Part shown: positions 7,382-62,545 of the stretch, piece by piece
Layout: each line of letters opens with the position of its first letter
How positions within the stretch are numbered: position 1 is the first letter of the stretch
Source of the DNA: Hormiphora californensis
Lineage: Eukaryota; Animalia; Ctenophora
Assembly: GCA_020137815.1 (NCBI GenBank)
Contig: CM035351.1
Span: 5,456,001 to 5,520,000, forward strand
Reading direction: 5' to 3'
DNA length: 64,000 nucleotides
Program-made: the position numbers and the translations under genes
Notes under the pieces: generated by a model
The model's database searches: none
The model's input: only the letters and a program-made list of their open reading frames with translations
What the model was told of the DNA's origin: nothing

Positions 7382-14575
<7,194 letters not shown>

Positions 14576-16719: not shown

Positions 16720-17480
16720 TTTTTTCCCCGCCCGGGTGAATGCCGAAGGCATTCACCCGGATGCCTTTTGCAAAAAGGCATAGGGGTTTAGAATTCGACA
16801 AGTTTACATACTAGTGAAGTGTCACGCTTTTTTTGTCCCGTGACGTAACCCATCCATAGCAACCATCCAGTGCGGAGTGCTCAAAATATCATTTGAAATA
16901 CTTCACACACGCTCTAATTCAAATTGCCCACGAAGGCGACGCCCGCAAAGTTATTACAGTGCTGAAATGACGCACTTTCATTAGAACGCGCAGCCCGGCG
17001 CCGTGCGCCCCTTCCTGTTTGCAATTCATAACGTTCATCGTTCGTCATGTGTTCGTCATTACAATTGCGCTCTGGTATTGCCATTGATTACATGAGGTGA
17101 GAGGTCAGTTGAGTGGAGATCACATAGACTAGAAAAGGAGCCTAATTAGGCAGCTCATCACCTGCACTGTTCTATCTCACCTTTCAGAATCTCAATGAAT
17201 GAGATCTGTTCAGGATTAAATAGGGAGGAAAATTAGAAAAATATCTGGCGAGGGCCGGGCTCGAACCGACAACCTCTGGGTTTAACCAACCATTCTTCCA
17301 CAACCGTGATCTGCCCGCTGTATGTTTCCCCTTCACTGTTGTACAGTAGGGCGTGTATGTGTGAGAGAGAAAGGGGTTAGGGGCAAAAAATTTAAAAAAA
17401 TTTTTCTGATTTGAACTTGGTCATAATTTACACCCTGGGGGGGGAAACCCCCGCATAGGGAAATATGAAAATTTTTTTTA
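16720..17480 (+). mobile_element. Helentron/DINE-1-like non-autonomous element (HINE), tentative
   Basis: Begins in a T-run with ttccccgcc, then hairpins ccgggtgaatgcc-gaa-ggcattcacccgg and atgcctttttg/caaaaaggcat. A candidate 3' sub-terminal repeat gggggggaaa and stem-loop precede a T-run near 17436-17479, in low-quality sequence. Confidence 0.45.
17245..17299 (-). mobile_element. tRNA-derived SINE head / tRNA 3' half remnant
   Basis: Reverse strand reads aacccagaggttgtcGGTTCGAGCCcggccctcgcca, a B-box/T-arm plus acceptor 3' side. No D-arm or A-box is recognisable, so this is not a functional tRNA. Confidence 0.5.
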
Positions 17481-20400: not shown

Positions 20401-21250
20401 TAAAAAAAAAAAAAAAAAAAAAATTCCCCCCCTTTTTTTCCCCCCCCCCCCCCCCAAAAAAAGACCCCCCCCCCCGAACGGGAAAAAAAAAAAACGGGAA
20501 AAACTTGGAAAAACCTTTTTTTTAAAACAAAAAAAAGGGAAAAAGAAAAAACAAAGGTACCAAACAAAAAAAGGTTTTTTGGCTTTTGAAAAACCAAAAA
20601 GGATAACGCGACCTTTTTTTCCCCCTTGCTGGGACGTCAACAAACAAAACGGAACTGAAAAAAACCCCCCCCTTACCCCCTTTTTCCCCCCCCCACCCTT
20701 CTGCTTTCCCCCTTTCCTCCTCCCCCCCACCCCTCTCTCCCCCCCCACTCTCTTCCCTCTCCCCCCTCCTCTCTTCTCTTCTTTCTCTCATTATATCAAG
20801 AAGATAATAAGTGTTTCATAACAACAGCAGCAGCACGTGTTGTGAATGTGTGTAGCTTCTGGGTAGGTTCTCTCCTAACAGGAAGGTGTCTGCGACCGTT
20901 CATCCCGGGGCCCCGGCCCCCCCTCCCCCTCTCCCCTCCTTTTTATCTCGTCACCTTTCCTATTTTTTTTTTTTTCTTTTTTTCCCCTTCGTTTCTTCCT
21001 TTTTTTCCCTTCCCCTTTTCTTTCTCCTTTTCCTTCTTCTTCTTCTCTCCTCTCTCTCGCATCTCTCCCCCTTCTTTTAGACCTTTTTTCAGTTTTTCGA
21101 CTTTCGTACTCTTTTGAAGCCACATTTTGTAATTGGTAATGTAATTTAGTGCTTTCCATATAATAATGAATGTGGCTTCTAAAAAAACGGGGGGCCTACA
21201 GTTTTTACACTAACACAACTTAGAATTTGTAAAATTATATCCACCCCCCC
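17400..21250. other. low-quality, homopolymer-inflated assembly consensus (also about 23300-24296; N gap 24297-24396)
   Basis: Abrupt switch to runs of A/T/G/C of all four bases, unlike the rest of the window. Confidence 0.9.
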
Positions 21251-22810
21251 ACTCCCCCTTTCTTTTCTGTGTTGCGCGTGTTTGTGAACATCATCATTTC
21301 CCCGTGGGCCGTGTCTGCATTCCATGTGCCATATATTCACATCGAGAATCGGTGGACCGTGAAAAACATGAAAAAGGGGAAATAAAACTAACGGATGTGT
21401 GAGAGAAATGGAGAAATGAACAGAGAGCGAGAGAGGGAGAGAGAGAATGATGGAAAGATGGAGAGAGAAAGGGAGAGTGATGGACAATTGGAGAGAGAAA
21501 GGGAGAGTGGGAGTGAGAGAGAGAATGGTCGAGAATGGTCTGCATAATATCATCCTCTTCAGTCCTCCTCCTCCTTGGTCCTCCCGCTATCCTTCCACAC
21601 TTTACACGCACTACACGTTTCTCACCATCTTTTGTTCATCACTGCATACAAATTCACACACTCCAATCATGTCGTGGAGATGGTCTGATCTGATGCATCT
21701 GATTTATATTCAGTTAATGCTGTAACAATTAGTATAAACGCGTGTAGTTACATTCTGTATAGTGCAGTTTGGGTAACTCTTATATTTTGATAGTCTGAAC
21801 TCTGAAGTTTCTGTTTGTCGTTCTAAACGGAAAGAAAAAGGGGGGAGAGAAGAATGTAATACAAGTGTAGTATGAGTCTGAAACTAAAGTCTCAGTTATT
21901 GATGACAACAGAGGGAAATAGACAATACAAGAGGAAGATATATAATGGGAAAGCAAAATGAGTAGAAGAGGAACAAAGAAAGAGAGAAGGGGAGATAAAG
22001 AGAGAAAAGAAAGGAGAGAGATAGAGGGAGATAGATAGAGAGAGAAAGAGAGAGAAAAGAAATAGAAAGAGAAAGGGAGGGAGGGTTGGACAAATAGTAA
22101 GTACAGCTGTAAATGAAGGCATTTCCTCTCCCAGTAATAATAGGAAATGACAGCAATCGTAATTGTTCGAGAGAGAGGGAGAGAGAATGGTAACATCTAG
22201 AGAGACAGGGAGGCATACAGTTTGTCTGTAGATGTGGAGTCTAGGGTATCCATGCATTGCAACTGCATGGGTAAAGAAACCATTTATAAGTTCTAGAACT
22301 AAGCCATCTGACTATTAGTCATCCACTTATGTTACACATAAGTAACAGAAGAAGTAAGTGACAATCAAGAAGGTTATTACAGTTGTAATATTTCGAATAG
22401 TGCGAAATGTTTATTGTTGGTTTGAACGTCCTCCTCCGTCCATTGTGTTCGTCTGTGTTGGTTTGTCTGCATATGATTCCGCGTGTGTAATATAATGTTA
22501 TAATATTTAAAGAAGCTATATAACACACCGTGTGTAACGCTTCATCGCCCTAGCATAGTACAAACTAGAATGGCATATTATGTCCTCTCTCTCTCTCTCT
22601 CTCGTTCTCTATCTCGCTCGATCTCTCACCATCCCTTCATTTATAACCATGTATCTCTTTCTCCCTCACTTTCCCTCACCCTCCCTCTCGTTCTATCTGT
22701 TTCTGTCCCAGGTACAATGTGTTCATATTCGTTCCCCTGCTGCAGCACTGTGTAACAAGGGTCGCCCAGTGTACCCACTATTATAGAGCTCTCCTTCTCC
22801 TCTGTCTCTC

Positions 22811-22889
<79 letters not shown>

Positions 22890-22892
22890 CTC

Positions 22893-22943
<51 letters not shown>

Positions 22944-24429
22944 CTCTCTCTCTCTCCCCCTCTCTCTCTCTCTCCCTCCAGTGGGCCTGACGCACTACAC
23001 GTGCCAAAGTACACGGGGTCGTGGTGTGTGTGTGAGAGTGTAAAAATTAACACTCACTCTGCTACAATTGCTGCTGCTGTACCCCTCTAAGTGTCTCTAT
23101 CCGTTAGAGGCCTTGGTTCCATCAACTATGCACACTCGCATTCCCCGACACAATTGGACACAATGTAGTTACCAGAATAGTAATACATGAATCGACCCAA
23201 TTTCCCGATAAATATATGACTCTCTCTCTCTTCTCCCTCTCTTTTTTACCCTCCCTATCCATGTAACATATAATGCAAATTTCCAGTTGTCTGAGAGACA
23301 CACACACACATGGGTGGGAACATTTTCCCCTCTCCCCATGGTTGGGTTTTTACACAGCGCTTTTTCATAGTTTTTGTTCAATTGAATCCCTGCTAAAATT
23401 TCCCCTCCCTTTCCTCTCCTCTCTTCACCCCCCCCCCCCCCCCCCCCCCTCCCCTCTCCCCCCTTTTCCCCCCCCTTTCCCCCTCTTTCTTTTTCCTCGG
23501 CCCCCTCTCCCCCCTCTTTTCTTCCCCCTTTTTTAAAAAGGGGGGTTTTTTCATGTTGTAAGTTTGCTGCCGGCTCTGATATATACTTCCCTGTACTTTA
23601 ATTTAGAAAAGTATTTAAGAGATAGAAAGTCAGACTTCTGATACGGATAGAGAGAGAGGGGGGGGGGCAGAACAACAATGAATCACTGTATATCAAAAGC
23701 AGGGCGGTTTGGTGTTATCATTTGGCACAGTTCCCTCTCTTTACCTGACACCTCCTAAATTCTAGGCACGCGAATGCCATTTTACTCAGTCAGTCTCGAC
23801 TATCAATTCTTCCCAATATATATTCTTTCTATTTTCATTCCAAGTATCTCTCCCCTTTTTCAAGGGTTACACATCTTGCGCGGATGGATCTGGGGTGTCG
23901 TTGTCAAGGGGAGAGGAGGAGGTTGAATTCACAGTCCTTCTTTTGTTTCAAAAATTTTTCCCGTCGCTTTTCCCGTGTACCCTCCAAAATTATCTATTTC
24001 TCTCCCACACTATTTTTCCCCCAGTCCCCTTTTTTTTCCCCCTCTCCCCCCTTATCTCTCCCCCCCTTCTAGTTTCTTCCCCCCCGTTCTTGTCGTCCCT
24101 CCTTTAAATTTTATGGTAAAACCCGTAAAAACCGCTTTATTTTTTTCCTTCCCCGCGCTTCTTCCCCCTTCCCCCCCTCCTCCCCCCCTTTTCCCTCTTC
24201 CCCCCCCCCCCTTTTTATTTGCCTGCCCCAATTTCCTCATCCCACCCAAAACATGTTGTTTCCCTGCCAATCCCCCTCACAAAACAAGCGGGGAGANNNN
24301 NNNNNNNNNNNNNNNNNNNNNNNNNNNNNNNNNNNNNNNNNNNNNNNNNNNNNNNNNNNNNNNNNNNNNNNNNNNNNNNNNNNNNNNNNNNNNNNNTTCT
24401 TTTCTCTCTCTATCTTCTCTTCTTTCCCT

Positions 24430-27400
24430 TCTTACCAAAACCCGCACTACACAAACATCTATGTCGCCGCACGTGTGCAGTGGAGAGATAGAGAGAGAGG
24501 AAGAAACAGAGAGATAGGGAGAGAGAGAAACTTGTTCAAACTTCTGGGAAATGAAGCTTTAGTAAGGTTTGCACGGAAAGCAAAAGTTTACAAATTACCA
24601 CTACCACACACAGGTCACCATCCAAATTAGTAACGACTTGGCACAGATCATCCACCAATCAACCGTTCACTGTCTGCTTCAATCTCCATAATAGACGCTG
24701 GTATAGTACATTCCCTAAATACACACACTGTCTATTGTCTACGCTCGATATAATTGAAAGAGAATTAGACGCTTCTTTGCGCATTTTAAGTTGGTGCAGA
24801 TATTCAAGAACTGAAATATTTCATTCAATCGATTTTCCGTGTTGAAATATTCAGGATTGTGCAGAAGTCGGATTTTTTGAAGTTGACAACTTCAAAAAAT
24901 CCGACTTAACATATATTTTTAAAAGACATTTGAAACTCGTGTTCATTGGTGTAGTTCCTGGTCGGGGCCATAAGCCATAATAAGCTAGAATAAACAAAAC
25001 AGGCCAAGCGTAACGCATGGCCGAACATTACATAATTAGCGTAACCGCAATAATATCAAGCAAGCCTTACATCATATCAGATATTACCAACAAAAACCCT
25101 CCAGCAGACAGCTCTGACCCAAACCCCTCCCCCCTCCAGCACCAGACAGAGAATGGATTTATAGAGGAGCTCGGGACTCCCTCTCCCTCCACCTCGTCAG
25201 TAAACAGCCCCGGATCAACAGCATCAGACACGCCGCCCTACCTCCGGAGAAACTTTGCAACGAGAATGCGGAAAGGTGGTTTCAATTCGACCCATGAGTA
25301 TGAAATGGTCAGCTGCAGTGGGCATCTCAGGAAGTGGAATGAGGTAGCAAGAAGTGCAGCCATGGACGGGGACATGTTCCCTCAGGTATAGATATTAGTC
25401 TGTTTGTTGTTCTGTGTGTGCGTGAGTTTGTCTGTTTGTTTGTTTTTTCCTTCGTTTGTTTGTTCCTTCGTTTTTGTTGTTGTTCCTTTCTTTGTATCTT
25501 CAGTAAAGATTCTTCAGCCCCCCCCCCCCTCCATTACACGCCGTCCCCTATCAGGACGGGTACTGTTTAGTGGGTGTTGGTAGACTCCAGTCGACACAAA
25601 CTATCAGAGAAATGACGTCAGGAGCTCCCTCCCTAAACGCCTGGACCTCCCACCATAGGATGGACGCTAAATACATCTACGTGGACCAAAAGTGAGTTGG
25701 ACAAAATAATGGATACTTTGTACAATATTTTTGGTTGATTCTCTCATGTTGAGGGGGTGATCCCTGTAGTGATCTCACGGGGTTCGAAGTTTGGTCAGGC
25801 ATAGAAGACTCAGGATGTTACAAAGGTGAACAAATTTCAATAATTTCAATTTATTGAAATTTGTTCACCTTTGTAACATCCTGAGTCTTCTATGCCTGAC
25901 CAAACTTCGAACCACGTGAGATCACTACCGGGATCACTCCCTCAACATGTCTCTACCACGGACGGTGCCATCAGCCCTATAAAGCTGATCCATTGATTCT
26001 CTCAAATGTATAACTGCATACTAAACGCCCCCCCCCCCCCCCTAGTGCGCCATCCATTGTGGGATACTCCGCTGCAGAGCTACTGGGATCGAGTGCCTAC
26101 AATCTCTATCACGATGAAGATCTCAGTGGACTTGCTCGCAGCCATGTGGAATGTAAGTGCAGTATTTTCACAATGCTGTTATACACAGTACACACTGTTC
26201 TCCACATATAATATTTCAGAAATTATATGCATATATCAGAGTTATTGCAAGAACAGCTGGTCCCTTTCTTTTTATGAATCATAACCCCCTCTCCCTTACC
26301 ATCTAGTAAATAAGAACGGTACTGGCATGACGGGTCTGTACCGGTTTCTAACCAAGGGCCAACAATGGCTATGGATCAAGACCCATGGTATCCTGCAGTA
26401 CCGGGAGGGAACTACTGTTCCACAGTAAGTTCTAACAGTTGTATGCAATTTCTTGGTGCGCCATTATCAATTTACAACTGATATCAGTGATATTTGATAA
26501 TGGTGCACCAAGAAATCACATGATATTATTTCACAGTTTCAGTATTCAATTTCGATTCAATACCGGCTACCATGGTCCCCGGACCACTCAGTGTGTAGTT
26601 TTATCTTCACCTCCTGTATGAACTCCCTGCACAACCCATCCATCAATACCACTCTTCCTGTTCAATTTCACTCATCCCTCCAGGTCCGAAACTCACCCTT
26701 TCTCCAGGTCCGAAACCCACCCTGAATATCACCCCCTCCAGATCCGAAACTGACCCTCTCCATGTCCAGGTCCGAAACTCACCCCAATACCCACCCCCTC
26801 CAGGTCCGAAACTCACCCTGAATATCACCCCCTCCAGATCCGAAACCCCGAAACCCCTCACCCCCTCCAGGTCCGAAACTCAACCCACTCCCCCTCTCTC
26901 CAGGTCCATTATCTGCCACAATGTAGTAGTCAGCTACGGAGAGGTATGGAAGTACCTGCAGAGCAAGTCAAGACAGTATGGACCCAAGGAGAAGTCCTTC
27001 CTTACACCCATTGCACCACCTCCCAAAACGACCGCCCTGCCAACCAAGTCTGAGCTGGTCGCTACTGACGGTGAGTCTTCTGTTACGGTTCGTTTATTTT
27101 TCAATTTTCTGTCCCCCCTTTATTCTTTTCCGGGATTATTCTGTTTTAACCCTTGCATATTAAATATTCAACCTTTCCATGGATCCACACAAAAGAAAAT
27201 GTGCGGAAGAAGAGGGAGAGAGAAGAGAAGTTTTAAAATCCTAGAGATTCTAGAGTATTAAGAACATATATACTGCTCAGTGTGTGTGTGCGTTTGTTGG
27301 TGTGTGATGTATCGACAAATTGTATCGAGCTCAGTGTCTTCATGAGAAAGAAGGGAGAGAGAGAAATGAAGATAGAGGGAGAGAGAGGGAAATAGGGATA

Positions 27401-29101: not shown

Positions 29102-29822
29102 TGAGAGAGAAAGAGAGACTGTCGTTATTTATTGAAATCTGGAGTACAAGCAAAGACTGAGATTTATGCGGTCTGTTTTTTATTTGGAGAGAAGCGTACT
29201 GTGTTAATCGCTCTTATTTCATCAGCCACAAGTTCTAGCCAACAGCAAATAGTTGTCTTCATCGTATCTTACCTTACTATCCCGATCCTCATCCTCTGCT
29301 GGAACGGGCGGCGATTTAGGTTGTAAAGATAATCGCGCGCCGCCTATCCTAAACCACGCTTAGAGTGCTGACTTCGTGCGCGGATGTGCTTTTCATGTTG
29401 TGTTATCTGCGCGCCCTCCGATTCAACACTCGAATGATCTGATTTTCTGATGAGAGACTGAGAAGTTAAAAACCAAACTTTAGCATAAACCAACACATGT
29501 AACATGTGTAACTTGCGATTGACATACACGAAAACCATCGCCACAAAACACACACACACAAACTAAATTCATAACATTACTAATTGGTGAGAAAGGGGCC
29601 TGGAAATTGGGGCAGCTTTCTCACGCATCGAAGTGTATACAGAAAAACCCTGTGTAGAAAATTTATTACGCGAAATATAGATCTCTAGAAGCGTCCTTGA
29701 ACGCAATTAATTGTCCTTGTTGCAGCTCTTCTCACTGCACCATCGATTGAGGAGGGAGCCATGGAATCTAGGCTGCTGCAGCACTTTTAGCTTTTAACAT
29801 CTCATGGAATGTGGTGCCTCAT

Positions 29823-35937
<6,115 letters not shown>

Positions 35938-36899: not shown

Positions 36900-37130
36900 G
36901 CAGTTGGCCTATGCTACAGAAGCCGTGGAAAACGCGCGCACTTGGGGTCTGCAGCGCATGCCAAACGGAGCAGTTACTGAAGGAAAAAAGTTTGTAAAAA
37001 TATGATCAAAAAACTTTTGAAACGAGCACTTTGATTTTTGCTGACAACGCAGTGCGCGCGCGTCTAATGGCATGCGCTGCAATCCCATCGCGCGCCACAG
37101 TGAGGCGTTGGGCGACTTTTTTGCTACACA
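36900..37130. promoter_or_regulatory. putative bidirectional promoter between FoxP and the DCC1-like/SPT5 block
   Basis: Head-to-head arrangement with a local cluster of GCGCGC motifs (about 36934, 37054 and 37089) in AT-rich surroundings. Confidence 0.45.
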
Positions 37131-37296
37131 GTAGGGGTATCCAAAATCGTTCATTTCCAGTTTGTGTTTTTGCCGTTCGTTCGCTCTCTTCCCGATGCTC
37201 TTTGCTCAATCAACCCTTGTTGCCTGCTATGTTACCTGCTGTATTTTGCTTATTCGTTTTTTTCTATTGTGTCACTAATAAAATTTAATGATAGCT

Positions 37297-38042
37297 ATGC
37301 AACGGCTCTGTGCTGTACGTTTGTCCAGACAAGTCTGCACGCGGGATAAGTCCTCAATTAAAGTTTACGCTGACACAGGTTGTCGGATATCATATCCAGA
37401 GGTGCAAACTATCGCAGAAAGAGCCAATCAAACGGGTATACATTTAACGTTTGTTCGAGCATTTGATACCAGTATGAAATATCCAAGAATAATGCTGCAC
37501 TTTTTATCTACTAAATACTATCTATGATTTAGTGAAATATCCAAGAATAATGCTGCAGTTTTTATCTACTAAATACTATCTATGATTTAGTGAAAAACAT
37601 CAAACTAAAGCTGGGTATCTTTTAGGGAAACATCCTATTGAAATTGTGGATGTGTTGACTCGGTCCTACAATTCTGAACTCCATGGAGGTTTGACAAGAA
37701 GAGATGCTATGTTGGAGTTTCATGTCAGGACGGAAAGTGGGGAGATAATAAAGAATGTTGATGCCATTTTGTTTCTCTACAAGCATGTTGGTTAGTTTAA
37801 CTTGGTAACTTCATTGATTAATTGATTGACTTGCCGTTTCTTCTGGTTTCCTTTCTTTAGATCCAAAAGTGTACTGGCTACTTCGACCATTTTATATCCC
37901 GCTCGATCTGATATTTCGACATGTCTGGCTGCCCAACCGGTTTCAGCTCTACGGAAGGTGTGATGTAAGGATGGAGTTGGAAGAAGATGAACGGTACCTC
38001 AAATGGAGGAAAAATTTAGGACAAAAGCGATTGGGAAAATGA
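37297..38042 (+). CDS. DCC1-like (DUF393) thiol-disulfide oxidoreductase family protein, probable mitochondrial presequence
   Basis: Exons at about 37297-37435, 37626-37790 and 37861-38042: MQRLCAVRLSRQVCTRDKSSIKVYADTGCRISYPEV..IEIVDV..GLTRRDAMLEFHVRTESGEIIKNVDAILFLYKHV..WLPNRFQLYGRC. This matches the recalled family pattern (YDxxCxxC, HV...G...DA, NR..xGR). Confidence 0.8.
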
Positions 38043-38177
38043 AGCTATTGTGTGTTGTATGATGTTGTATATTCTTGTTAAATCTTTTTGATATTACACT
38101 GAACTCAAATGGCTTTTCAAACTATAATAGCATTTCAGCATATTCTTTCCCTGCTAACATGTTATCATCATTAGACT

Positions 38178-41100
38178 ATGAGTAAACGTCCGATAACAGA
38201 CCTCCAATCGGACGATGATTCAGATGTCGATCTTGATGAGGAATTCAGTGAGGATGAATTAGATGAAGTCCAACCAAAGAAATCAGCACCGAAAAAGTAA
38301 GATCTTTATAGTACATAACTCCCTCCCGCGCGGGCAGTTAATCAATAGACGCACTGCAGAGTCCCGAAGGGACCCGTGCGTTACAGCACTGTAAATCCCG
38401 AGCGTCAGCGAGGGGTTTACAGGTATATCTGCACGCTAGGGAGGGAGTTATGTTCTATAGACCCCGCTGGCGGGCACCTAGAAGCAAAACAAGCACAATT
38501 TACGTGGTTCTCAAACATAGAGCTCACACAAAACGGGTCAAACAGTTGGAAATGAAGCCACAGATTGCCTCTCTACATTCTTACACACTCGTAGCAATCG
38601 TTTTAACAATTCAAAAGGGTGGAATGCATAGAGAGATAACAGTTAATTGTGGGTCAAGAGGAACAGTTGCCAACAGACTGGCGGGCGCCAAATCTAGACC
38701 GAGAACGTTGTAGGTTGTACACACACTCCCTCTTGTGTTGCCACGTCATTTTATCGTGTTTCCAGTGATTCTTTGTGATCTTTACACAAATCTGTCAGAG
38801 GGCGTGCGTCTATCGAGATACAAACTCACGGCAGTGCACGGCCCAATAGACCAGTGCAAATTGTTCAAGCGCGCCGTGCGTCTATTTTAGCCAGCGGGGT
38901 CTATATACATTTGTTTCATTAATGCACCGGTTTATTGTCCCTTCCCCATTCGACCCATTATATGACCCCTTTCTCCCCTAGATCAAAATTCCTGCGGATC
39001 ACAGACTTCATCCAGGACGAGGCTGAGGTGGATGATGATGCGGATGACCTTGAGGAAGATGATGACTTGGAGGAAGGGTACAGTGAGCTGGTGAAGGAAG
39101 GTGCCGAGGAGCCGGAGGATGGGGAAGATGCTTACAGTAGTCGAATGAGGCTGCAACATATCATGGACATCGAGGAAGAGGACAAGATTGAGCAGTATTA
39201 CAGGTAGGAGTTGTTTGTTAGTTAATTTCTGTTTTGTTCATCTTTTTTCTGTTTTGTCCCTGTTTTGTTCCTGTTTAACTCCTGTTTGTATGGTTTCCTT
39301 GTGATAAATCTACGAATTGTTTAGGAACAAGTACGCCGAAGTTGACGACCAGGATGTTATTGACACCAGTGGGTATGCTAAGAACGAGGAAGTAAAACAA
39401 CAAAGTGCACTACCGGGTGTCAAGGATCCCCGGCTGTGGCAGGTTAAGTGTCGGATAGGAGAGGAAAAGGCAACCGCCATCAAACTCATGCGGAAGTTTA
39501 TAAATTTGGAGGCAAATAATGATCCACTTCAAATCAAATCAGTTGTTGTTCCTGTTGGTGTGAAGGGGTGTATTTACATTGAGGCGTACAAGCAGACCCA
39601 TGTAAAAGCAACCCTGGCGGGAGTGAACGCTCTGGGAATGGGGAAGTGGCAGCAGCCTATGGTACCCATTAATGAAATGCCTGATGTCCTCAAGGTGAGT
39701 CGACTATCTTTTTACTCGTCTCTAGTTGTTCTACATGTTCGAACGTGTTCTAATATTCGCTTGTTTATTTTTCACTGAAACCATGTCTCTCTCTCACAAT
39801 TAGGTGGTTAGCGAACCGTTGGCGATAAAGCAGAATTCTTGGGTCCGGATCAAACGGGGAATCTACCGGGATGATTTAGCACAGATTGACTACGTTGAGA
39901 ATAACCAAAACAAGGCTCTCTGTAAGCTAATCCCCCGGATAGATTACAAGAAGGTGAAAGCTGTCTACAAGGATGGAGAAACCGTTAATAACTTCCGGAG
40001 GTCTGCCAAGGGACGGCCGTCACAGCGAATTTTCAAAGCTGATGAGATCAGAGGTCTGGGAGGAGAGTTGAAGAAAGATGGAGATTTTATCATTTTTGAG
40101 AGTAACCGATACCGTAATGGCTTCCTCTACAAGACCCTATCCTTTTCCGGTATTTCCATTGATGGCCAGAAACCCACGGTTGAGGAACTGAAAATGTTTG
40201 ACGAGCAACCAGACAACGTTGACCCGGAGAATCTCCCCTCGGAAAAGAAGCTAACCACAGATGCAGTGTTTTCAGCGGGGGATGTGGTAGAGGTGTCAGA
40301 GGGAGAGTTGATTCACATGACGGGTACAATTATCAGCATAGCAGGAGATAAAGTTACCATTGTGCCAAACCACGCTGATCTGGCTAACGCTGGAGCACTG
40401 GAATTTCCAGCCAAGGAACTCCGGAAGATTTTCAAAGAGGGTGACCACGTGAAAGTGATCAATGGAAGTTTGGAGGGCGAGACGGGTGTTGTTGTGCGGG
40501 TAGATGACAATATTGCGGTGTTAGTCGCTGATAAAACCCTTGAGGAGTTCAAGGTTCGACCCCGGGACCTCCAGCTATGTACGGAAATGAACTCCGGTGT
40601 GGACAGCCATGGGATGTACCAGATTGGTGATGTGATCGAGATAAACCAGAGTACTGTCGGGTATATCGTTAGGATAGAGCGGGAATCGGTCAAGGTTCTC
40701 ACTCAGTACGGGAAAACTGAGTCAGTGAATAACAGGGCCATTATGAGGAAACTTCGGTGTGGCCAGGCCTTGGATTCACAGCAAAACTTCCTGAAGCACA
40801 AAGACATTGTTGATGTGAATGATGATAAGAAGAGAAGGGGAGAGATCAAGTTTATCTGGCGTCATTTCTTGTTTTTGTTTAACCGGGGTTTAGCGGAAAA
40901 TGGTGGAATTTTCGTTGCTAAATCACGCGGTGTAACGTTACCAGGTGCAAATAAGTCCACTGGTAGTTTTGTTGCGGCCTCCCCCCGTCTCCAGTCACCC
41001 TCTCGGAGTCCAATGCGGGCTGGGGGTGATGGTGGTGCGTCACCCAGGCATAGCCGAGGAGGGGGCAGAGGGGGCAAGAGCCAACGAGACAGAGAGTTCA

Positions 41101-42179
41101 TTGGCAAGACGGTCAAGGTTAAAACTGGTCCATACAAGGGTTATGTGGGTATCGTCCGGGATTCAACGGACACCACTGCCAGGATTGAGCTTCACACGGA
41201 CTGCAAAATCATTTCCGTCGAGCGGGGTCATCTTGCGGAGGTGACGACTCTGGCAAGTGGAGGTCACATCACTCCCTCCACTCCCTTCATCAACAAAACC
41301 CCCGCCTACACGAACAACCTGGGTGGAGCTACCCCAGTTTACGGGGCTCAGGGTTCACGGACACCCATGCAAAGTGGAAACAGGACACCCATGTATGGAT
41401 CTCAGACACCGTCCAGGGGAGATCGGACACCCTACTATGGCGCCCAGACACCCACCCATGACGGCAATGCGACCCCTCGGGCGGGATATAGTGCTTGGGA
41501 TCCCAACTGTCCGAACACTCCTGCCCGATCATCATCTGATGATTTTAATGATTTCTACGAGAACTCACCCTCACCTGCTCCCTTCAGCCCAGCGAACCCC
41601 CAGACACCGGGTTACGGTGAACCAATGACGCCAGGGTATGCCATAGACAGCATGGGTCCAGCCACCCCGGGCACTGATTACAATACCAGTAGTGCCCCGA
41701 GCCCGGCTTCTCCCTACACAGAACCCTCACCCTCACCGGGCGAGTCCAGTTTAGGACCCCCGTCCCCCGGATCAGACAGCTCCGTACCCACACCCTACAG
41801 TAACCTGGCAAGTCCAATGACCCCAGCATCAACACAAGAAAACTGGCCTCTCAGTGGCATTGAAGTTGTCATGTTAGAGAGTTTCGAGGATGGCCAATAT
41901 ATCGGCCAAACGGGATACATCAGGGCTGTGTCCGGGCCCATTTCAACTGTCTGGTTGTATGAAGAAGAACGGGAGTTTGAGTGCCAGAGTTATCAGATGA
42001 AACCTGTTGTGCCGAAGAAACAGGACAAGGTTGTGATAATAACCGGAAACAGGAGGGGTAACCACGGGCAGCTAATTAACATTGACAATGACGATGGTAT
42101 CGTGAAGGCAGACAAGTCCCTGGAGTTGAGGATTCTAAAACTGGATTCCCTCGCAAAGTTATCCGCTCACCACATGTAG
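38178..42179 (+). CDS. SUPT5H: transcription elongation factor SPT5
   Basis: Exons at about 38178-38296, 38982-39203, 39325-39694 and 39804-42179. Acidic N-terminus, LPGVKDPRLWQVKCRIGEEK NGN domain, multiple KOW motifs, GSRTPM/TPMYGSQTP CTR repeats and a C-terminal KOW. Confidence 0.99.
38313..38905. mobile_element. non-autonomous multi-hairpin element (Crypton-like, tentative) in SPT5 intron 1
   Basis: Branched palindrome 38313-38453 (inner gtcccgaagggac and ctgtaaatccc..gggtttacag). Inverted repeat tatagaccccgctggc 38456-38471 pairs with 38890-38905. Confidence 0.6.
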
Positions 42180-42463
42180 AGAGAGGGTATGTGCATTGGG
42201 GAGAGGGGATAGTTTGAACTTGGTAAAGATTGAAGTATGATGGTTGAGTGGTTTGTGGGTGAAAGGTGCTTTATTCATTTTTCAGTGTGACAATATTGCA
42301 ATATCAATATGTCACTGTATCATTGATTAATATTATTCAACACGTTTGACTCTTATTTAAATTGATCGTTTTAATCTACCTCTACATTATGGAGTCCATG
42401 AGTCTCTCCCATTTAACATAACACAAAGAAGTAAACCTTCCCATCTCTCTCCTCCTAGCTAGC

Positions 42464-42823
42464 ATGTCTATGGCATCAGACCCCCGGTCCGGTTCGCCGG
42501 CCTCCTCTCCCCTCTTCTCTCCCCCTGCCTCCCCAGCTGGCATGTCTCCAGCGGGTGGTCCAGGCTCCCCCGGTGGCATTGGATCCCCTCCCAACAGGAT
42601 CTCTCCCTCTGGCCTGAGCCCATCCATGCACGACCAGAACCTGCAAGCAGCTGCTGCCACTGCAGTAGGGTCCACTGTCAAGAAAGCCATGATTTATGTT
42701 TGTGGGGAGTGCCGTGGTGACAACGAGATCAAATCACGTGACCCGATCAGATGTCGGGAGTGTGGCCATCGGATTATGTACAAGAAGAGAACTAACAGAA
42801 TGATGGTCTTCAACGCACGATGA
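42464..42823 (+). CDS. POLR2K: RNA polymerase I/II/III shared subunit RPB12 with a long Ser-Pro-rich N-terminal extension
   Basis: C-terminal [44 protein letters not shown] is the RPB12 zinc ribbon. Intronless 119-aa ORF directly after an acceptor-like ctcctcctag. Confidence 0.97.
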
Positions 42824-42984
42824 GTTACAAGAAACACTACAGATAGAACTGTTTTAATATTTTTGCAAAATTAACACTTATTTATGTCTTTCAAAAGTCG
42901 TACCAGTTCATTTTAACAAGCGTAGTTTAATGTCTAAACTCTCAAAAGTATGCACAACTAAATCCTATACCTTCTCTCCAAGTT

Positions 42985-44930
42985 ATGCTACAGGCTGTAA
43001 GGGTTCAGCGGGCCCTTTCAGGGGTGCAGCTGTTGAAGCGATTCCGTCACCCCGATACAAAACCTAGTGATCAAACTGTAGAGATTCAACCTCAACAGGA
43101 GCTCATCTCTCGAGAATTGTTACGGCCAATTAAATCAATCCGGAATGTTACTTTAGGTAAGATGGAATTGGTCTCACTAGAAACCGTTTTATATACCCTG
43201 CTAACTTAAATAATGCGCCAGTCCCACTAGCGCGCTCTCAATATACAGCCAGTCCAGCGGCAGATTATTTCCCACTGGCAGGTTATTTATTTTTAACTCC
43301 TATGTAACATTCAAAGTGTGTGTAAATGATCAGTTCTTAAACTGATCATTTAAAATACAGAGGGAACACTATGTGTAACACTTACACACTACATTGGAGA
43401 GAAAGAAAGGACACATTCCGTCAATTACTCTCTCTTTATCTCCCCTTTTGTCTCACTATCTCTTCCTCTGTGTTATGTGTGACATGCCCCTTATCAGGCT
43501 ATTTCTTTCACTCTCTCTCCTTAGCAACTGCTTAGTAACTGTTACCAAACAGTGTACACTCAATTGTGAGGTGTTTTTAACTATTTCTCAGTCCTCTTTG
43601 TGTGTTTTGATTAGTGTTCTCTCTCCTGTTAGTGTGTAATACTTGAAACAAACAACTAAAGCAGGGTATATAACCTATAAACTCTGACCACTGGCACGTT
43701 ATTGGTTTAAACCCCTCCGCCTCTCCCTCGGCTCCGCCTCGGGATCGTCGTCGTGATTTAAACCAGTTTATCCGCCAGCGGCGGATAAACTCCAGCTAAC
43801 TTCTCCCAGCGGCGCGCTGGGAGAAAGTTATCTGAAATAACGCGCCAGTGGCCAGAGTTTATACCTCATAAATACTTCTTGGTATCTAAGAAATCAGAAA
43901 GACTAATACATTATTTTCCGTGGACAGTGCACGACCAGCCGTTAGATGGATGGACTATGAAACAGCCCACCAGACCTAACATCCTCAGACCACGGTGGCC
44001 AGAGCAGTTCATTATGGAGCCTGTCTTTCAGGGCCGCTATGCAATTGTTGCTTTGGAAACATCCTCTCTGGGCTTCAAAAACATGAAGGTACATACACAC
44101 TAATAAATTACCTAGCTCGAGTCTTTATGGGACTAGGGAGTGTTTGAGAAATGAGAGTCCCCTACTCCCCTTATAATGAATTACTATTTTCAGGCCAGTA
44201 AAGAGTTTGTGAACAAATGGCTCACTCGAGGTATCCATGGGTTATGGGTCAGGTACTACCCCGACTACCCTAGATCTATCCGATTACCGGGCATGCCCAA
44301 GAACGGTGGCGGAAAGGGAAAAGTGAAGCAGTGGCACGATTACGTTCATGCAGGTTAGTTTTTATTATAATTTTAAAACAGGAATCTGAATCGTTTTTGT
44401 TATTTGTAAAGTGGGGAGGAAAACGTTTGTATTACTGTGTAAGTCAAGGATTTTTACCCGATACTATTTTCAGGGCGAGTTTTGATTGAGTTCGACTCAG
44501 ATCCTTTGACATCAAAGATAATATTTGACGGAGTGTTCAAGAGGGCAAAGTTGGCTGTAATGTTAGTCGATGGAAATAAACATCGCCAGCCTGGATTGGT
44601 AAGTATAACGGATTTTTGTAACGAATCAGTCAAATTCCAATTCCAACTACATATTTTAAGGTTTACCCGCCGGTCCTTATATCCATCGGTTTTTCACAGG
44701 TGACAGATATTGGAGGACGCGATAGGCTCGGACACAAAGTATACGACTACAAGATTGAACGAGCATGTGGATCAACCTACGTTTTCAGGCTACCAAAAGA
44801 CATGTACAAAGACAATGAGGGTACACGCTGTACAATGGAGACCATGCAATTAAACTATTCTCATAACAAGCACCATAGCTTTGGCAATGATCGTCTTCGT
44901 GTTAGAACGGGGACTGCTCACGGATGCTGA
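42985..44930 (+). CDS. MRPL16: mitochondrial ribosomal protein uL16m
   Basis: Exons at about 42985-43156, 43928-44088, 44194-44353, 44474-44598 and 44700-44930. Arg-rich presequence, then GRYAIVALE, LWVRYYPDYP, GGGKGKVKQW..VHAGRVLIEF. Confidence 0.88.
43189..43863. mobile_element. non-autonomous multi-hairpin element (Crypton-like, tentative) in MRPL16 intron 1
   Basis: Inverted repeat ttatataccctgct 43189-43202 pairs with agcagggtatataa 43660-43673. Branched palindrome 43676-43863 is an inverted, diverged homolog of 13451-13649. Confidence 0.65.
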
Positions 44931-45492
44931 GTATTTCTCACTTTAATAACGAAGTCCTGTTGTGTAAGTTATTGATCTAAAGTTCTGTCCATTCTCCAAA
45001 TCGGCGCCTCTTTTTGTCTCAAGTTTTGAACTGTGATCCCCGAACGATCTCCTTGTAAAGAAAGCACATCCGCGCGCACCACGCGCGTTCACATTCGTGT
45101 CATTGTCAGAAATGATGCGACGCGCAAATAACTCCAATTTACTCCGCAAACAACTTCATTTTCAGGATGAAAGCTCAGATAACCATAGAGACGGAGCAAC
45201 TTCATTTCTCTGCAGTTCATCCTCCGCAGCTGAAGAGTTTGGTATTTCTCATTTGTTACACTTGTGTTCCCCTTGTTGAGTGAAGCTAAGTAGTAAATGC
45301 ATTTGCAATTCAATCTCTTTTGATTACTTAGCGAGTACATAACAGCATTTTATATCCACCTTACAGTCACACCTTAGCAGTTCATGTCTTGCGGGGCTTG
45401 TAGCACTGTATCAACTATCATGTATGCCAATTCCACTTTCGATTTAACTCAACCGTTATATATCATTTCCCTATTTTCTAGGTTAAGCGGTT

Positions 45493-48400: not shown

Positions 48401-49943
48401 AATGGTCGTTCGGCAACCGGTTTAATAAACACACGATCCTAGCATGATGAAGAACAATGTAATATGAAGTAAACAACCTCTCTTGACGCATATTGTTCTG
48501 TCCCTCTAGCTCTATTGAATATTATCTCTATTATAATTTGGAGATGAACGTCGTGGTCGAAGTCGTTCGTTCAGTGCGTTTCTACGCGACAGACTGCTCC
48601 TTCATTAAGAATTTCAGTGGCGTGTTGTGACGAAATATTGGTGAACTGACGTAACTACGGCAGCCAAGAAGGAAATCGCGCGGCGCGCACAGCACACACA
48701 GAAGACATTAGAAACTTTCAATTCAACTTCCTACCCGCGCGTTCCAGACACGTCATTTTGGTCGAGGTGTCGTCATAATCATTCATGTTGCTATAGGGAC
48801 ACCTTCTATTTCTACAGTTCTTTCAGATCCCCTGCTATCAGATCACATCAACCCTATTAGTTAACCTCATTAGTACCCCTGTCAGTGTCACATTTCTCAT
48901 CAGCTCAGTGCTCACATGTCTTTGTGACATGTATTCCACACCCATTAAATTATGGCAGTGTCGAATGGAACTTTGATGGAAAAGTACGCTAAACAGCCGG
49001 CTTTCTTCTTGGGAGCAGATGTTTAAACTCTGCTGGCAGTTAGTGATTATTTCGGAACATAATTTAGCAATTCAGTCTCCATAGTTACCGATTTAGTTGC
49101 CATGGCAACCATCAAATGTGGGAAAAAAGAGGGCCACCCGTCGAAGCCGGGTGGTTTGTGAACACCCCTTATTTGAGGCGCACCCAATGGGTGCGCTAGT
49201 TTAGGCTAAAAGAAAGATTTTGGTGGCCATAGACCTAGATGGTGGCCGGATGAAATGACCCAATGCTATCATGACCTGAGAGCTGCACTCCGGAATCGAC
49301 ATGCCCCTGGTCACACTCCGCGTCTGGAGGGCGCGATACGATCTGTGGTGACGCGCGCACGCAGCTGCTGCGCGCAAAAACACAACCACGCTCCAACCTT
49401 TCCAGTTCCTCTGAAAGCGCTGACAAGCTCCAAACACAAAGTTACCACTCAATCCCTCTCTTTTCAGACCGTCCTGGAGATCAGTTCTATGAACGAGAAC
49501 ATTGCCGCCCTAAGGGAGGCCATCAGGCTGAAGGACTCTCCCATGCGTGTGTCCCACATGAGGCTCAACACAAGGTCCATGAGGCCCAACATTGAGCTGG
49601 TGAGGGATCCCGTCCAGTATGGACTTGTTGAGGAAGTTGGACAGATCACCGACTCTGTTGAGGCTCTTTCTGTAAGTTTTAGAATCTAGTATAATGTCTC
49701 AATCTAATGTGGTATTTTCAAATCTCTAACCACCTTTACTTGAAATATGCCTATTGTATACCACTCTCTCCTCCCCAGGCTAAGCTGAACGAGAGCATTG
49801 AAAGGCTGCGAAACCTCGAGAGGAACAAGAAGGCTTTGGAGGAGGATATTGCCGTGAAAACTAACTCCCTGAACATCGATCAGTCTCAGTGCCTCCGATT
49901 GAGGAAGACCCTAGTTTGGAGAAGGCACGAAATTAGCTTTTAG
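45493..49943 (+). CDS. tektin (Tektin-1/4/3/5 class)
   Basis: Exons 45493-45981, 46617-46687, 47390-47533, 47633-47855, 49468-49671 and 49779-49943. Motifs RIENITYWK, CLKHREGRLSIDLVHDDVEVQLLKE, RPNIELVRDPVQYGLVEEV and LEEDIAVKTNSLNIDQSQCL. Confidence 0.96.
47231..47244. promoter_or_regulatory. RFX X-box in tektin intron
   Basis: GTAACCATGGAAAC. Confidence 0.6.
49096..49109. promoter_or_regulatory. perfect palindromic RFX X-box in tektin intron
   Basis: GTTGCCATGGCAAC, with an adjacent X-box-like GTCTCCATAGTTAC at 49075-49088. Confidence 0.75.
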
Positions 49944-59064: not shown

Positions 59065-62000
59065 TTACATGTACATGTCAAGATTGTAGAACTCCGTTTG
59101 TCGCACAGACGGATCGTAGTAGTCGGTGATGGTGACCTGAGCTGCGGCGAGGTTGCTGACCTTGAACTCCTCGACGAGTGGCATGGAGACGGAGTACATA
59201 TCCGGGCTGATACCGGGCTTCACATACAAGTGAACCCTCTGTCCTCCCTCCTTGATATCAAATCGGCTAATGATGTCACTGGCTGAGATGGTTTCCGTGA
59301 CCAGGGCCTTTCTGAAGGTGAAACCAGTTGGTGCCTTCATCTCTAGTAGAACCATTGATGCAGACCTTTCCTTGTCCACCTTGAAGTCGGCAGATACCAT
59401 GAAGTAACTGGTGATGGGATCCCGTACTGCAGACAACTTCAGTCCAAACACCGCACTAGACTGGTTGGTGGCAGTTGATTGGTGGTAGGTTGATATCAGC
59501 TGGACAAATGAGGTTCCCATTCCAGTCCATTTGATCTTGTATTTTCCGGTACTGGCAGGGAGGTCCACCTCCTTTACAGACATATCCTCACCCTTAATCC
59601 GCAGCTTCTCGAAGTACGACCTGCCCTTTCCGATCAGAATGGTCATGTCCGTTTCAGCCATGGCGGGGGCGTTCTTGATGGCATATGTTGAGAGAGCCTG
59701 GAGGGCAACAACAGTATCCTGACTAGACCTGAAACCTCCTGTCTCAGACTTCTGAGATGCGAGCCAAAGGATCAGTGGAGTACTATCATCGAATTGATCG
59801 ATAGTCATGTAGTAAAGAGCAGCGTAAGCGGTCGCCTCGATGCTCTTGCTATCTCCAGGGGTACTGCAATCAGCGAACACATCATATCCGTCCCTGGTCT
59901 CAGTGACACATTGGTCCTCAATTTCACGGAAGTCTGCGAAACCTTGTTTGCGGCAGAGTGCCATTGCATAGGTGTTCATGTGAGCAGTACAGCAGTCCTT
60001 CAGGGGCGCTTCACGGATCAGCTTGTTGCACAGGAACTCCAACTTGTCACTCTCACCGTACGGTGATCCAAAGTCACATCGGGGAGAATCGTAGGACTCG
60101 AGGAGGGAGATAAGGAAGTATGCCAGCCAGTTAGATTCATCATTAAATTGGGAGGGTGCCCATCCTTGTCGTGCTCCTAAACTGGATACACTGTTGTAAG
60201 TGCTGATAAGGTTAGTCAGAGCCCTCCTGTCACCAGTCACCACATCGGTACAGGGAACGTGAACACTGGAGGGGAATTTAGCGTAGGTTCGGTAGACGAA
60301 GGCGGTCAGCCAGTGGCTTACCTCACTTCCCGAGAACACAGAGTAGCCATTGTACTGCCTGTAGGTCATCTGTCGTTGGAGACCCACATTCAGGTTGTGT
60401 TCGATGTTGTATTTCAGATATTCAGGAAGCTCAACCTCACTCTGTACGTTGTTTAGGTATTGGCTAGCAAACACGTTCACTGCAATTTTGTGCATGTTCT
60501 GTTCCCCGCATCCAGTTGGAAGTTGGATCAGGCTGGCGATACCAGTGGCAGCGTTGCCAAGGAGATCACTATAGGCAACCACCTTCAGGTCATGTGATCC
60601 GGGAATATAAGAGCTAGGCAGGTTTACAGACAGGACACGCTTTCTGGAGGTGATTTCTTCCTCAGTGATGAGAATGTTTTGAACATCAACGGTCCTCACG
60701 CCACCCGGCTGGACAAAGAGAGACCTCTCAATGGCATCACTGTCCCCAGCGGAGGAGGAAGCGGACACAGTTATGGGGTGTCGTCCTGCCTCGGTTAGAC
60801 TAACTGTATAGTTCACAGTAGAGAAAGAGTTACTCTTGATTTTGATGACTTTGCTGGTAGCTTCCCAGAGACTGCTGCTCACCCTGACCTCACATGTCAC
60901 ATCAGTTTCCCTGTAGTTGAACACGCTGATAGGGATTGTGATCCTCTCACCGACAATTCCAGAATACGGGAGGTCTAGCTTGATAAAGAAGTTTAGGAAG
61001 GTGATGAACTCGACATCATTTGAGAATCCCACTCCGTTCTCGGGGGAGAGACCAAAAGCACTTCCCTTCCACCCAGTGATGGTGTCAGGGGCAGTGACTG
61101 TCAGGATACTCTTTCCGTCACTATCAGTTGTAACGTCAGTCCACAGCCAGGACTCAGGGAAGAAGTTCCTCAGTCTGGGTTCCTCCGTATCATTTGACAT
61201 GTCACCTTCATCCGTCACTTCGTCAATGGCATCAGTGTAATAGCTATCATCTTCCTCCGCCATAGCCATCTCCATGTACTCTGTTCGGTAATAATCGCCA
61301 CCTCTTCCGGGTGATCCATACCTATAGTCGTAGTCATTCCTCCTCTTGACAGGTGGCTTGTAATCAAACAGGTTCATGTTGGTATCAATACCAACTCCCT
61401 CGCTGGACAGAAGATCCTTGACATCGATTATTTTCACCTCAGTGTTAGAAGTACACTGGTAGGGATCGTCCCGCTGGCATGACTGATCCTTCTCGCTGCC
61501 GGTATCCTGGCCTCGTAGGAAGGATAGGGTCTCCTCCTTGGTGAGAACCTTACAGGGAGCTCTCATCAGGTCCAGGGACTTGTCACTCATGGAAATACCC
61601 ACGAATGAGGTGGGGTCTCCCCTCAGGTAGGCGGTTATGTTTTCACCGGGTTGCCCCATCTCCTTGCTGAGCGAGAATGTCAGGGAATGAGGAAGGAACT
61701 CAGTTATACAGAGGTCCAAGCCATCAGCCATCAGATGTCCATTGCTCTCGTGGGCAGTCAGCACCAAAAGACGGGATCGTACATTCAGAGTATCGGGGAT
61801 GTCGAACTCTCCAGAGGTCTCGAAGAGCCCATTCGGCAGCTCCTTCCACTGAGGGTTATAGCTCGAGGAATCCACAATAACACCCTTGGACATGATTACC
61901 ATGAACAAGACATCCTGCGCCCGAGATGCTCGGATCACGTACTCGGCCCTATCCCCGGGATTATAAGTGACGGGTTGCTCCTTGTGGAACCTCACGAACA

Positions 62001-62545
62001 AGTCCTTGTGGGCTACCATCCTGTCCGGTTGGAAGCACGAGAACACCGCCTCACAGGCATCATCACTCTCCAGCTCGGCTGTAATCTTAACCGCACAGGC
62101 ATCTTCAGGGACCTCAAATGAGGCAAAAGCCTTACCGTCCTGGATGATCACCTCCTTTTTCTGGTAGGTCAGAGTCTCCAGACCGCTCACCATGGTTACT
62201 TGGACTGTGGAACCATCAACGGCAGCCTTTTGGGACAGCGCCTTGACATCCATTTCCACGTAGTATGGGAACCCAGTTGAGTAGTGACGTTGGGTGTTCT
62301 TGTTGAAGGTCAGGGAGACTGCAGTCTGACTAAACTCAACGAAAGCTGTGGCAGGTTCTTGTTCCTCCTGGGGGGAGTAACACGTTAGCTGTGGATAATA
62401 AAACTCCCCAATCCATTTAATGTTTAAAATCTTTGCAACAAGAACTTACTTCCTCGCCAACTCGGGCGGTGATGGTCAATGATGAGGGAGAGCACCAGGG
62501 GTTGAACAGGTACTTCGTCTTAGCCATTACCAAATCAAGATCAAA
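59065..62545 (-). CDS. thioester-containing protein (TEP/CD109/alpha-2-macroglobulin family), 5' part outside the window
   Basis: Exons 62450-62545 and 59065-62367 (about 3.3 kb). Motifs LRNFFPESWLW, PDTITGW, PTGCGEQNM (thioester), WLTAFV, GGFRSSQDTVVALQAL and the receptor-binding domain DYYDP. Confidence 0.97.

What the first reader, a model, noticed from the sequence alone, without database searches (positions are those of the whole stretch)
37270..44930. Candidate trans-spliced operon: DCC1-like > SPT5 > RPB12 > MRPL16
Seen: four same-strand genes with stop-to-start spacers of only 135 bp (38043-38177), 284 bp (42180-42463) and 161 bp (42824-42984). Each ATG has a splice-acceptor-like AG 2-5 nt upstream: cactaat..gatag|ctATG, gctaac..cattag|actATG, ctctctcctcctag|ctagcATG and ccttctctccaag|ttATG. 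The three internal spacers are AT-rich, have no strong GTRAG donor or canonical AATAAA, and lack the GCGCGC clusters seen upstream of the first gene (about 36930-37095) and upstream of tektin (about 45070-45125). Established: nematode and tunicate operons have this geometry, are resolved by spliced-leader (SL) trans-splicing and are enriched in transcription and mitochondrial housekeeping genes; ctenophores have SL trans-splicing. Inference: one promoter, shared head-to-head with FoxP, drives a polycistron coupling Pol II elongation, a pan-polymerase subunit and mitochondrial biogenesis.
Basis: partly seen in the sequence, partly recalled or inferred. Interest (0 to 1): 0.88.

Follow-up and report, generated by a model that had tools for sequence, protein, structure and literature searches.

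The report
Likely four-gene operon in comb jelly
Four intact housekeeping genes of a comb jelly sit head to tail only 135-284 bases apart, and they are probably read as one long RNA that is cut into separate messages by adding a leader, as in worms and sea squirts, although no RNA spanning two of the genes was seen.

Summary
The geometry is real. In a Pleurobrachia-type ctenophore, DCC1-like, SPT5, RPB12 and MRPL16 lie on one strand with spacers of 135, 284 and 161 nt.

For an operon: (1) the published ctenophore leader is joined at the neighbouring tektin acceptor in two studies, so trans-splicing works at this locus; (2) a relative's RPB12 mRNA is polyadenylated 66 nt before the MRPL16 acceptor; (3) one MRPL16 contig begins exactly at that AG with 19 unaligned letters (not displayed); (4) the spacers are CpG-poor and lack good donors; (5) SPT5 and RPB12 occur on contigs of identical length in two distant ctenophores.

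Against or missing: no listed contig bridges a spacer; no leader letters were seen at any of the four acceptors; there are no start-site data. AG-before-ATG is no operon marker, since tektin and FoxP have it too. Absence of CGCG is expected by chance (61%).

Verdict: probable leader-resolved operon, best supported at RPB12>MRPL16, a known kind of system. I found no ctenophore operon in the library; I recall an unread 2014 prediction. The scan noted similar candidates in other animals, none in a ctenophore.

The parts
36933..37094 (.). CGCG/CpG-rich cluster, candidate promoter region between FoxP (minus) and the four-gene run (plus)
   Evidence: 7 CGCG, CpG o/e 1.35; promoter role inferred
37297..38042 (+). 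DCC1-like gene, about 173-178 aa; AG at 37293-37294; intron 37791-37860 confirmed, intron 1 inferred
   Evidence: Pfam PF04134 E 0.0098 on exon 2 only; spliced RNA contig in a relative; frames
38043..38177 (+). Spacer 1, 135 nt; 3' UTR of gene 1 and candidate acceptor AG 38173-38174
   Evidence: sequence; a relative's 3' UTR runs on for 32 letters past 38045; no RNA cover of the SPT5 5' end in 7 runs
38178..42179 (+). SPT5, 1028 aa; exons 38178-38296, 38982-39203, 39325-39694, 39804-42179
   Evidence: Pfam; 76% to Mnemiopsis SPT5; introns 2 and 3 seen in RNA contigs; intron 1 inferred
42180..42463 (+). Spacer 2, 284 nt; SPT5 3' UTR to at least 42291; candidate acceptor AGs 42457-42458 and 42461-42462
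   Evidence: X1 contig 42051-42291 unspliced, 0 differences; X6 contig begins at 42463 with 25 unaligned letters, not displayed
42464..42823 (+). RPB12 (RPABC4), 119 aa, intronless, with a Ser/Pro-rich N-terminal extension shared by other ctenophores
   Evidence: Pfam PF03604 E 5.8e-16; homologs P0149, P0269, P0270
42824..42984 (+). Spacer 3, 161 nt; poly(A) site after 42916 and acceptor AG 42981-42982, 66 nt apart
   Evidence: 19 A behind 42916 in one X3 contig, a relative; X6 contig laid from 42981 with 19 unaligned letters before it, the start predicted for a leader-joined read
42985..44930 (+). MRPL16, 282 aa; exons 42985-43156, 43928-44088, 44194-44353, 44474-44598, 44700-44930
   Evidence: all 4 introns seen in RNA contigs; open frame; Pfam L16 E 2.4e-4 on one exon
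45071..45124 (.). Second CGCG cluster, candidate separate promoter for tektin and likely end of the unit
   Evidence: 5 CGCG, CpG o/e 1.77; role inferred
45480..45481 (+). Tektin trans-splice acceptor AG; spliced leader joined here
   Evidence: loose ends before 45480 in X2 (18 letters) and X3 (28 letters), two studies, match the leader printed in PMC8527503; leader not encoded in the window
31376..35937 (-). FoxP, head to head with the run (span from the forkhead exon to the first ATG found; true ends not mapped)
   Evidence: Pfam FOXP-CC E 1e-18 and Forkhead E 3e-8; ATG with AG 1 nt before it

Best explanation
The four genes lie head to tail on one strand and are likely transcribed as one precursor RNA from a promoter near 36.9-37.2 kb, which would be cut at each gene's poly(A) site and re-capped by splicing the ctenophore leader onto the AG just before the next start codon. 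Shown: gene layout, cis introns, leader splicing at neighbouring tektin, and a poly(A) site 66 nt before the MRPL16 acceptor in a relative. Inferred: leader addition at the four acceptors, co-transcription, and the single promoter. Support is best for RPB12>MRPL16 (about 0.7), next SPT5>RPB12, weakest for DCC1-like>SPT5; all four in one unit about 0.5.
For: Ctenophore identity: SPT5 exon 76% to Mnemiopsis, at most 44% over full length to named non-ctenophores; the RPB12 cluster holds a Pleurobrachia bachei gene model. Leader at tektin: 18 of 18 letters (X2) and 27 of 28 (X3) match the published leader. Poly(A) behind 42916, 66 nt before the MRPL16 junction; published medians are about 100 bp for C. 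elegans and about 31 bp for Oikopleura (PMC7986045 passages). X6 record 18 is laid from 42981 with 19 letters before it, the exact start predicted for a leader-joined read, as observed at tektin. No good donor in the spacers, and X1 crosses the S2 GTATG sites unspliced. CpG 4 in 580 nt against 24 in 397 nt before gene 1. Linkage in other ctenophores: all 3 RPB12 homologs listed on long contigs (190,264, 224,988 and 540,174 nt) share that contig length with an SPT5 homolog; two of those SPT5 are 99% and one 87% identical to Mnemiopsis SPT5, although Hormiphora and Mnemiopsis share blocks of at most four genes (PMC8527503 passage). The P. bachei model P0268 fuses RPB12 with MRPL16 exons, so they are adjacent in that assembly too.
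Against: No listed contig bridges any spacer in 7 runs (36 and 24 pieces were hidden, cover was thin, libraries mostly oligo-dT or cDNA). None of the 41 displayed loose ends shows leader letters at the four acceptors (27 more hidden). The X3 contig of gene 1 starts at 37300 with no loose part; no run covers the SPT5 start; the X6 RPB12 contig starts at 42463, not at the predicted 42457 or 42461. The 19 hidden letters at MRPL16 could be adapter: loose ends of 12-21 adapter letters are common in X1, X4 and X5. The poly(A) call rests on one contig from a relative of about 90-95% identity, and internal priming there is not excluded. At least 56% of Hormiphora long reads carry the leader, so a leader does not imply an operon. 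5 of the 8 long contigs with a ctenophore SPT5 had no RPB12 of matching contig length in my lists; equal contig length shows linkage within 190-540 kb, not adjacency. Linkage of MRPL16 and DCC1-like in distant ctenophores was not obtained. The 500 nt before the MRPL16 acceptor hold 17 CpG, mostly RPB12 coding DNA, so an embedded promoter is possible.
Confidence: 0.62

Rival explanations
1. Four tightly packed but separately transcribed genes. Each has its own promoter inside the 3' coding part or 3' UTR of the gene before it, and leader splicing removes the overlapping outron.
For: Leader splicing is near-universal in these animals, so outrons can overlap upstream genes at no cost. No bridging RNA was seen. 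The GC-rich motif known from Mnemiopsis loop anchors marks only about 21% of other genes' promoters (PMC12221973 passage), so its lack would prove little; I did not establish that it is the CGCG motif seen here. RPB12 coding DNA is fairly CpG-rich.
Against: Three consecutive intron-sized spacers, whereas the next gene (tektin) has 563 nt with its own CGCG cluster. Only 66 nt lie between poly(A) site and acceptor. SPT5-RPB12 linkage is kept in lineages with little microsynteny. No CGCG in the 500 nt before any internal acceptor, against 7 and 5 before gene 1 and tektin.
Confidence: 0.22
2. A shorter or hybrid unit: only part of the run (for example SPT5>RPB12>MRPL16, or RPB12>MRPL16) is co-transcribed, or internal promoters supplement the upstream one.
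For: The RNA hints concern only spacer 3 and, weakly, spacer 2. Linkage evidence covers only SPT5 and RPB12. Hybrid operons are known in C. elegans (recalled).
Against: Spacer 1 is the shortest (135 nt), has no CpG and has the same branch-point-like and AG layout.
Confidence: 0.13
3. The AGs are ordinary cis acceptors fed by 5' UTR exons or by donors in the upstream gene, giving overlapping or dicistronic mRNAs.
For: Weak GTATG donors exist in all three spacers, one about 118 nt before the SPT5 AG, which is a normal intron length here.
Against: Donor scores are at most 4.0 against 7.6-11.8 for real donors. No such joint appears in the joint tables. RPB12 has its own poly(A) site.
Confidence: 0.03

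Closest known systems
Tunicate operons with one leader for operon and single genes (Ciona, Oikopleura; PMC7986045, passages read)
   Same: Same-strand housekeeping genes, short intercistronic distance, a leader used on operon and non-operon genes alike so that distance is the discriminator.
   Different: Ciona operons mostly have no intercistronic DNA and Oikopleura about 31 bp; here 66 nt at the one junction measured. Co-transcription not shown here.
C. elegans SL2 operons (PMC7986045, passages read)
   Same: About 100 bp from poly(A) site to trans-splice site; cleavage then leader addition.
   Different: No evidence here of a specialised SL2-type leader (not testable). The 66 nt after the poly(A) site are only 29% T, so no clear U-rich element.
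Hydra RFC140-flp operon (PMC3273482, passages read)
   Same: Non-bilaterian; stop codon less than 420 nt before the next gene's trans-splice AG; same initial argument from geometry.
   Different: Two genes, and verified by reporter constructs that showed no promoter in the spacer; no such test exists here.
Chaetognath operons (PMC12460157, passages read)
   Same: Defined as genes less than 250 bp apart with a leader on at least one; housekeeping content; up to nine genes; no operon-specific leader.
   Different: Different phylum and leader. Spacers 1 and 3 pass the 250 bp rule stop-to-start; spacer 2 passes once the 3' UTR (to at least 42291) is counted.
Ctenophore leader trans-splicing (PMC8527503, passages read); operon-like clusters predicted in Pleurobrachia (Moroz et al. 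2014, recalled, paper not held)
   Same: Same leader sequence, same animal group.
   Different: PMC8527503 has 0 hits for operon or polycistron. I recall that the 2014 genome paper reported several hundred operon-like clusters; I could not read it, so this cluster may already be in its lists.

Membership tests
SL-resolved animal operon | Two or more intact same-strand genes with very short spacing | tested here: met
   135, 284 and 161 nt; open spliced frames
SL-resolved animal operon | The organism performs spliced-leader trans-splicing | tested here: met
   leader at the tektin AG in X2 and X3, two studies; not encoded in the window
SL-resolved animal operon | Leader joined to each downstream gene | tested here: inconclusive
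   MRPL16: contig starts at the predicted base with 19 hidden letters; RPB12: 25 hidden letters, start 2-6 nt off; SPT5: no cover
SL-resolved animal operon | Upstream poly(A) site within about 100 nt of the downstream trans-splice site | tested here: met
   66 nt at RPB12>MRPL16, from one contig of a relative; not measured at the other two junctions
SL-resolved animal operon | Polycistronic precursor across the spacers | tested here: inconclusive
   no listed contig bridges a spacer in 7 thinly covering runs; contigs cannot show absence
SL-resolved animal operon | One promoter, none for the downstream genes | not testable with these tools
   no CAGE, GRO-cap, ATAC or ChIP data; only CpG composition
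SL-resolved animal operon | Conserved linkage in relatives (supporting, not defining) | tested here: inconclusive
   SPT5 and RPB12 share contig length in 3 of 3 long RPB12 contigs, 3 of 8 long SPT5 contigs; adjacency not read; metagenome scan gave 55 loci, none carrying SPT5 or MRPL16 and none above 81% identity
Nematode SL2-type operon | Specialised second leader for downstream genes | not testable with these tools
   leader letters at internal acceptors were not displayed
DCC1-like thiol-disulfide oxidoreductase (PF04134), gene 1 | Pfam score above the curated cut-off | tested here: inconclusive
   17.6 bits against 27.8, exon 2 alone; exons 1 and 3 gave no hit; NCBIfam 0 of 3; whole spliced protein not scanned

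The most novel reading that the evidence does not exclude
Probability: 0.4. Interest if true: 0.68.

Novelty: new member of a known kind. Interest (0 to 1): 0.46.

Why it matters
Leader trans-splicing is established in ctenophores, but my searches of the held library found no paper that describes or tests a ctenophore operon (judged from listings). Four ctenophore genome or chromatin papers have zero hits for 'operon'. A confirmed unit would add the deepest animal branch to the lineages where trans-splicing led to operons, which bears on whether operons follow wherever leaders arise. It would also explain fused ctenophore gene models such as P0268 and change how promoters are assigned. The mechanism itself is well known, and a 2014 prediction (recalled) may precede this.

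Tried and rejected
No whole genome is held for this window, so no genome-wide spacer distribution could be computed. The metagenome scan with RPB12 returned 55 loci; none had SPT5 or MRPL16 nearby and none carried the leader motif. MRPL16 exon searches found only fragments on contigs of 846-1881 nt, useless for linkage. No named Mnemiopsis or Bolinopsis RPB12 appeared among the 120 listed of 267 hits, so locus-tag adjacency could not be read. Parts without RNA cover (SPT5 start, FoxP side, spacer interiors) are not taken as evidence of absence. Rfam: 0 matches. The protein atlas did not answer for gene 1. The repeat finder was swamped by GA/CT tracts. The three spacers show no similarity to other parts of the window at E 1e-3. 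Rejected as operon evidence: AG before ATG, lack of AATAAA, and lack of CGCG taken alone. Moroz 2014, Derelle 2010 and one further PMC id were not held; the supplements of PMC8527503 could not be read and may bear on microsynteny and prior operon claims.
Full report
Organism. The large SPT5 exon is 76% identical to Mnemiopsis leidyi SPT5 and at most 44% over its full length to named non-ctenophore animals. The RPB12 cluster contains a Pleurobrachia bachei gene model that matches the window's RPB12 at 99%. The window is therefore a Pleurobrachia-type ctenophore. No whole genome is held.

Observation. All coordinates check out: spacers of 135, 284 and 161 nt, GC 0.30-0.37, and an AG 1-5 nt before each ATG. 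SPT5 (1028 aa), RPB12 (119 aa) and MRPL16 (282 aa) have open spliced frames. Seven introns of the run are seen as GT..AG joints in RNA contigs. Gene 1 is expressed and spliced in a relative, but its DCC1-like name rests on one sub-threshold Pfam hit. FoxP lies head to head, with its first ATG found at 35937. Tektin follows MRPL16 after 563 nt. Other Pfam-positive neighbours in the window (MFS, alpha-2-macroglobulin) are kilobases apart by their ORFs; their ends were not mapped.

Chance. An AG within 7 nt before an ATG occurs at 36% of 1039 ATGs, and zero CGCG in three stretches of these lengths in 61% of draws. Of 9 CGCG clusters in the window, two flank the run, two lie in tektin introns and the others elsewhere. 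AATAAA is missing after all 6 stops tested. Total CpG is lower than expected: 4 in 580 nt against about 14 in GC-matched stretches (P about 0.002, post hoc). The best donor-like sites in the spacers score at most 4.0 against 7.6-11.8 for the 8 donors the matrix was built from.

RNA. The run search listed 8 runs, 7 holding small shares; only assembled contigs were available. I laid 7 of the 8: X1-X4 at 90% (53 contigs), and X3, X5, X6, X7 at 80% (48 contigs). By their differences X1, X4 and X5 match the window almost exactly, X2 nearly so, and X3 and X6 are relatives at roughly 90-95%. Results: (a) At tektin, loose ends before 45480 match the leader printed in PMC8527503 at 18 of 18 (X2) and 27 of 28 letters (X3). 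The leader is not encoded in the window, so trans-splicing is shown at this locus. (b) In X3 a contig carries 19 A behind 42916, 66 nt before the MRPL16 junction. (c) X6 record 18 is laid from 42981 with 19 letters before it; a leader-joined read is predicted to start at 42981, just as 45480 was predicted and seen for tektin. The letters are hidden by the table cut and could be adapter. (d) X6 record 17 starts at 42463 with 25 hidden letters, 2-6 nt off the predicted starts. A related record (P0148) translates the upstream spacer almost unchanged but differs in the two codons before the Met, so a relative's leader-joined read could well start there; this is inference. (e) The SPT5 3' UTR reaches at least 42291 unspliced. 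(f) Against: none of 41 displayed loose ends shows leader letters at the four acceptors (27 hidden), the SPT5 start has no cover, the gene 1 contig starts at 37300 without a loose part, and no listed piece bridges a spacer (60 pieces hidden).

Relatives. All 3 ctenophore RPB12 homologs listed on long contigs share the contig length with an SPT5 homolog: 190,264 (P0150, P0126), 540,174 (P0270, P0134) and 224,988 (P0149, P0140). The first two SPT5 are 99% and the third 87% identical to Mnemiopsis SPT5, and 72-76% to the window where measured. I infer linkage within these contigs; I did not read the DNA, and 5 of 8 long SPT5 contigs had no such partner. PMC8527503 reports blocks of at most four genes shared by Hormiphora and Mnemiopsis, so kept linkage is informative but modest. 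P0268 fuses RPB12 with MRPL16 exons, a typical predictor error at tight gene pairs; it comes from the same or a very close species and is not independent evidence. The metagenome scan and the MRPL16 searches gave no usable ctenophore locus.

Mechanism. Most likely one Pol II precursor starts near the CpG-rich stretch 36933-37094. Cleavage and polyadenylation release each upstream mRNA, and the leader is spliced to the next AG, which supplies a cap (established chemistry of SL operons; inferred here). Tektin has its own CpG cluster and is probably a separate, also leader-spliced gene. The main rival is four separate genes with promoters embedded in the upstream gene, which near-universal leader splicing makes cheap (at least 56% of Hormiphora long reads). 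Sequence cannot separate the two; start-site data can. Nothing here supports a functional coupling of the four products or a promoter shared with FoxP beyond position.

Comparison. It works like tunicate and chaetognath operons, with one leader pool and distance as the criterion, and resembles the Hydra RFC140-flp case before its reporter tests. Membership: spacing, leader splicing in the organism and one short poly(A)-to-acceptor distance are met; leader on the internal genes and a bridging precursor are inconclusive; a single promoter is untestable here.

Literature. I saw passages of PMC8527503, PMC7986045, PMC12460157, PMC3273482, PMC12221973, PMC4824033 and PMC10282587. Term searches in PMC8527503, PMC12221973, PMC11797021 and PMC11184263 gave 0 hits for operon. 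Eight library searches (listings only) surfaced no paper on ctenophore operons. Moroz et al. 2014 and Derelle et al. 2010 are not held. I recall that the former predicted several hundred operon-like clusters in Pleurobrachia; that is unverified and lowers the novelty if right. Earlier notes of this scan list similar candidates in tunicates, arthropods and an unidentified invertebrate, none in a ctenophore and no look-alike stretch; they are unchecked and were not used as support.

Verdict. A real and probably polycistronic cluster, a new member of a known kind, with partial RNA support. Confidence 0.62, interest 0.46.

Noticed in passing
window 42464-42680: Ctenophore RPB12 carries an N-terminal Ser/Pro-rich extension of about 70 aa with repeated SP motifs, kept in P0149, P0269 and P0270 (72-77% identity overall); it could be a phosphorylation-regulated tail.
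   Followed up: partly
window 37470-37600: Near-perfect tandem duplication of about 60 nt inside the inferred first intron of the DCC1-like gene; real or an assembly artefact.
   Followed up: no
window 43188-43870 and 13469-13730: MRPL16 intron 1 holds a repeated, inverted-repeat-rich element with a 71% identical copy at 13.5-13.7 kb; related copies appear in RNA contigs. SPT5 intron 1 has another inverted-repeat element near 38307-38459.
   Followed up: partly
window 48585-48741, 49319-49374, 29334-29413: CGCG clusters inside tektin introns and between two gene 3' ends; possible enhancers or loop anchors of the kind described in PMC12221973.
   Followed up: no
window 42286-42314: Short AT-rich hairpin in spacer 2, near the end of the SPT5 3' UTR contig; no shuffle control run.
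   Followed up: partly
window 59068-62445 (-): Single open frame of 1126 aa encoding an alpha-2-macroglobulin / thioester-type protein.
   Followed up: no
window 17300-24500: Stretch rich in long homopolymer runs next to a 100-N gap; looks like low-quality patched sequence.
   Followed up: no
window 42843: RPB12 contigs of X1 and X5 (same study) both end here, followed by adapter; unexplained, possibly a library artefact.
   Followed up: no
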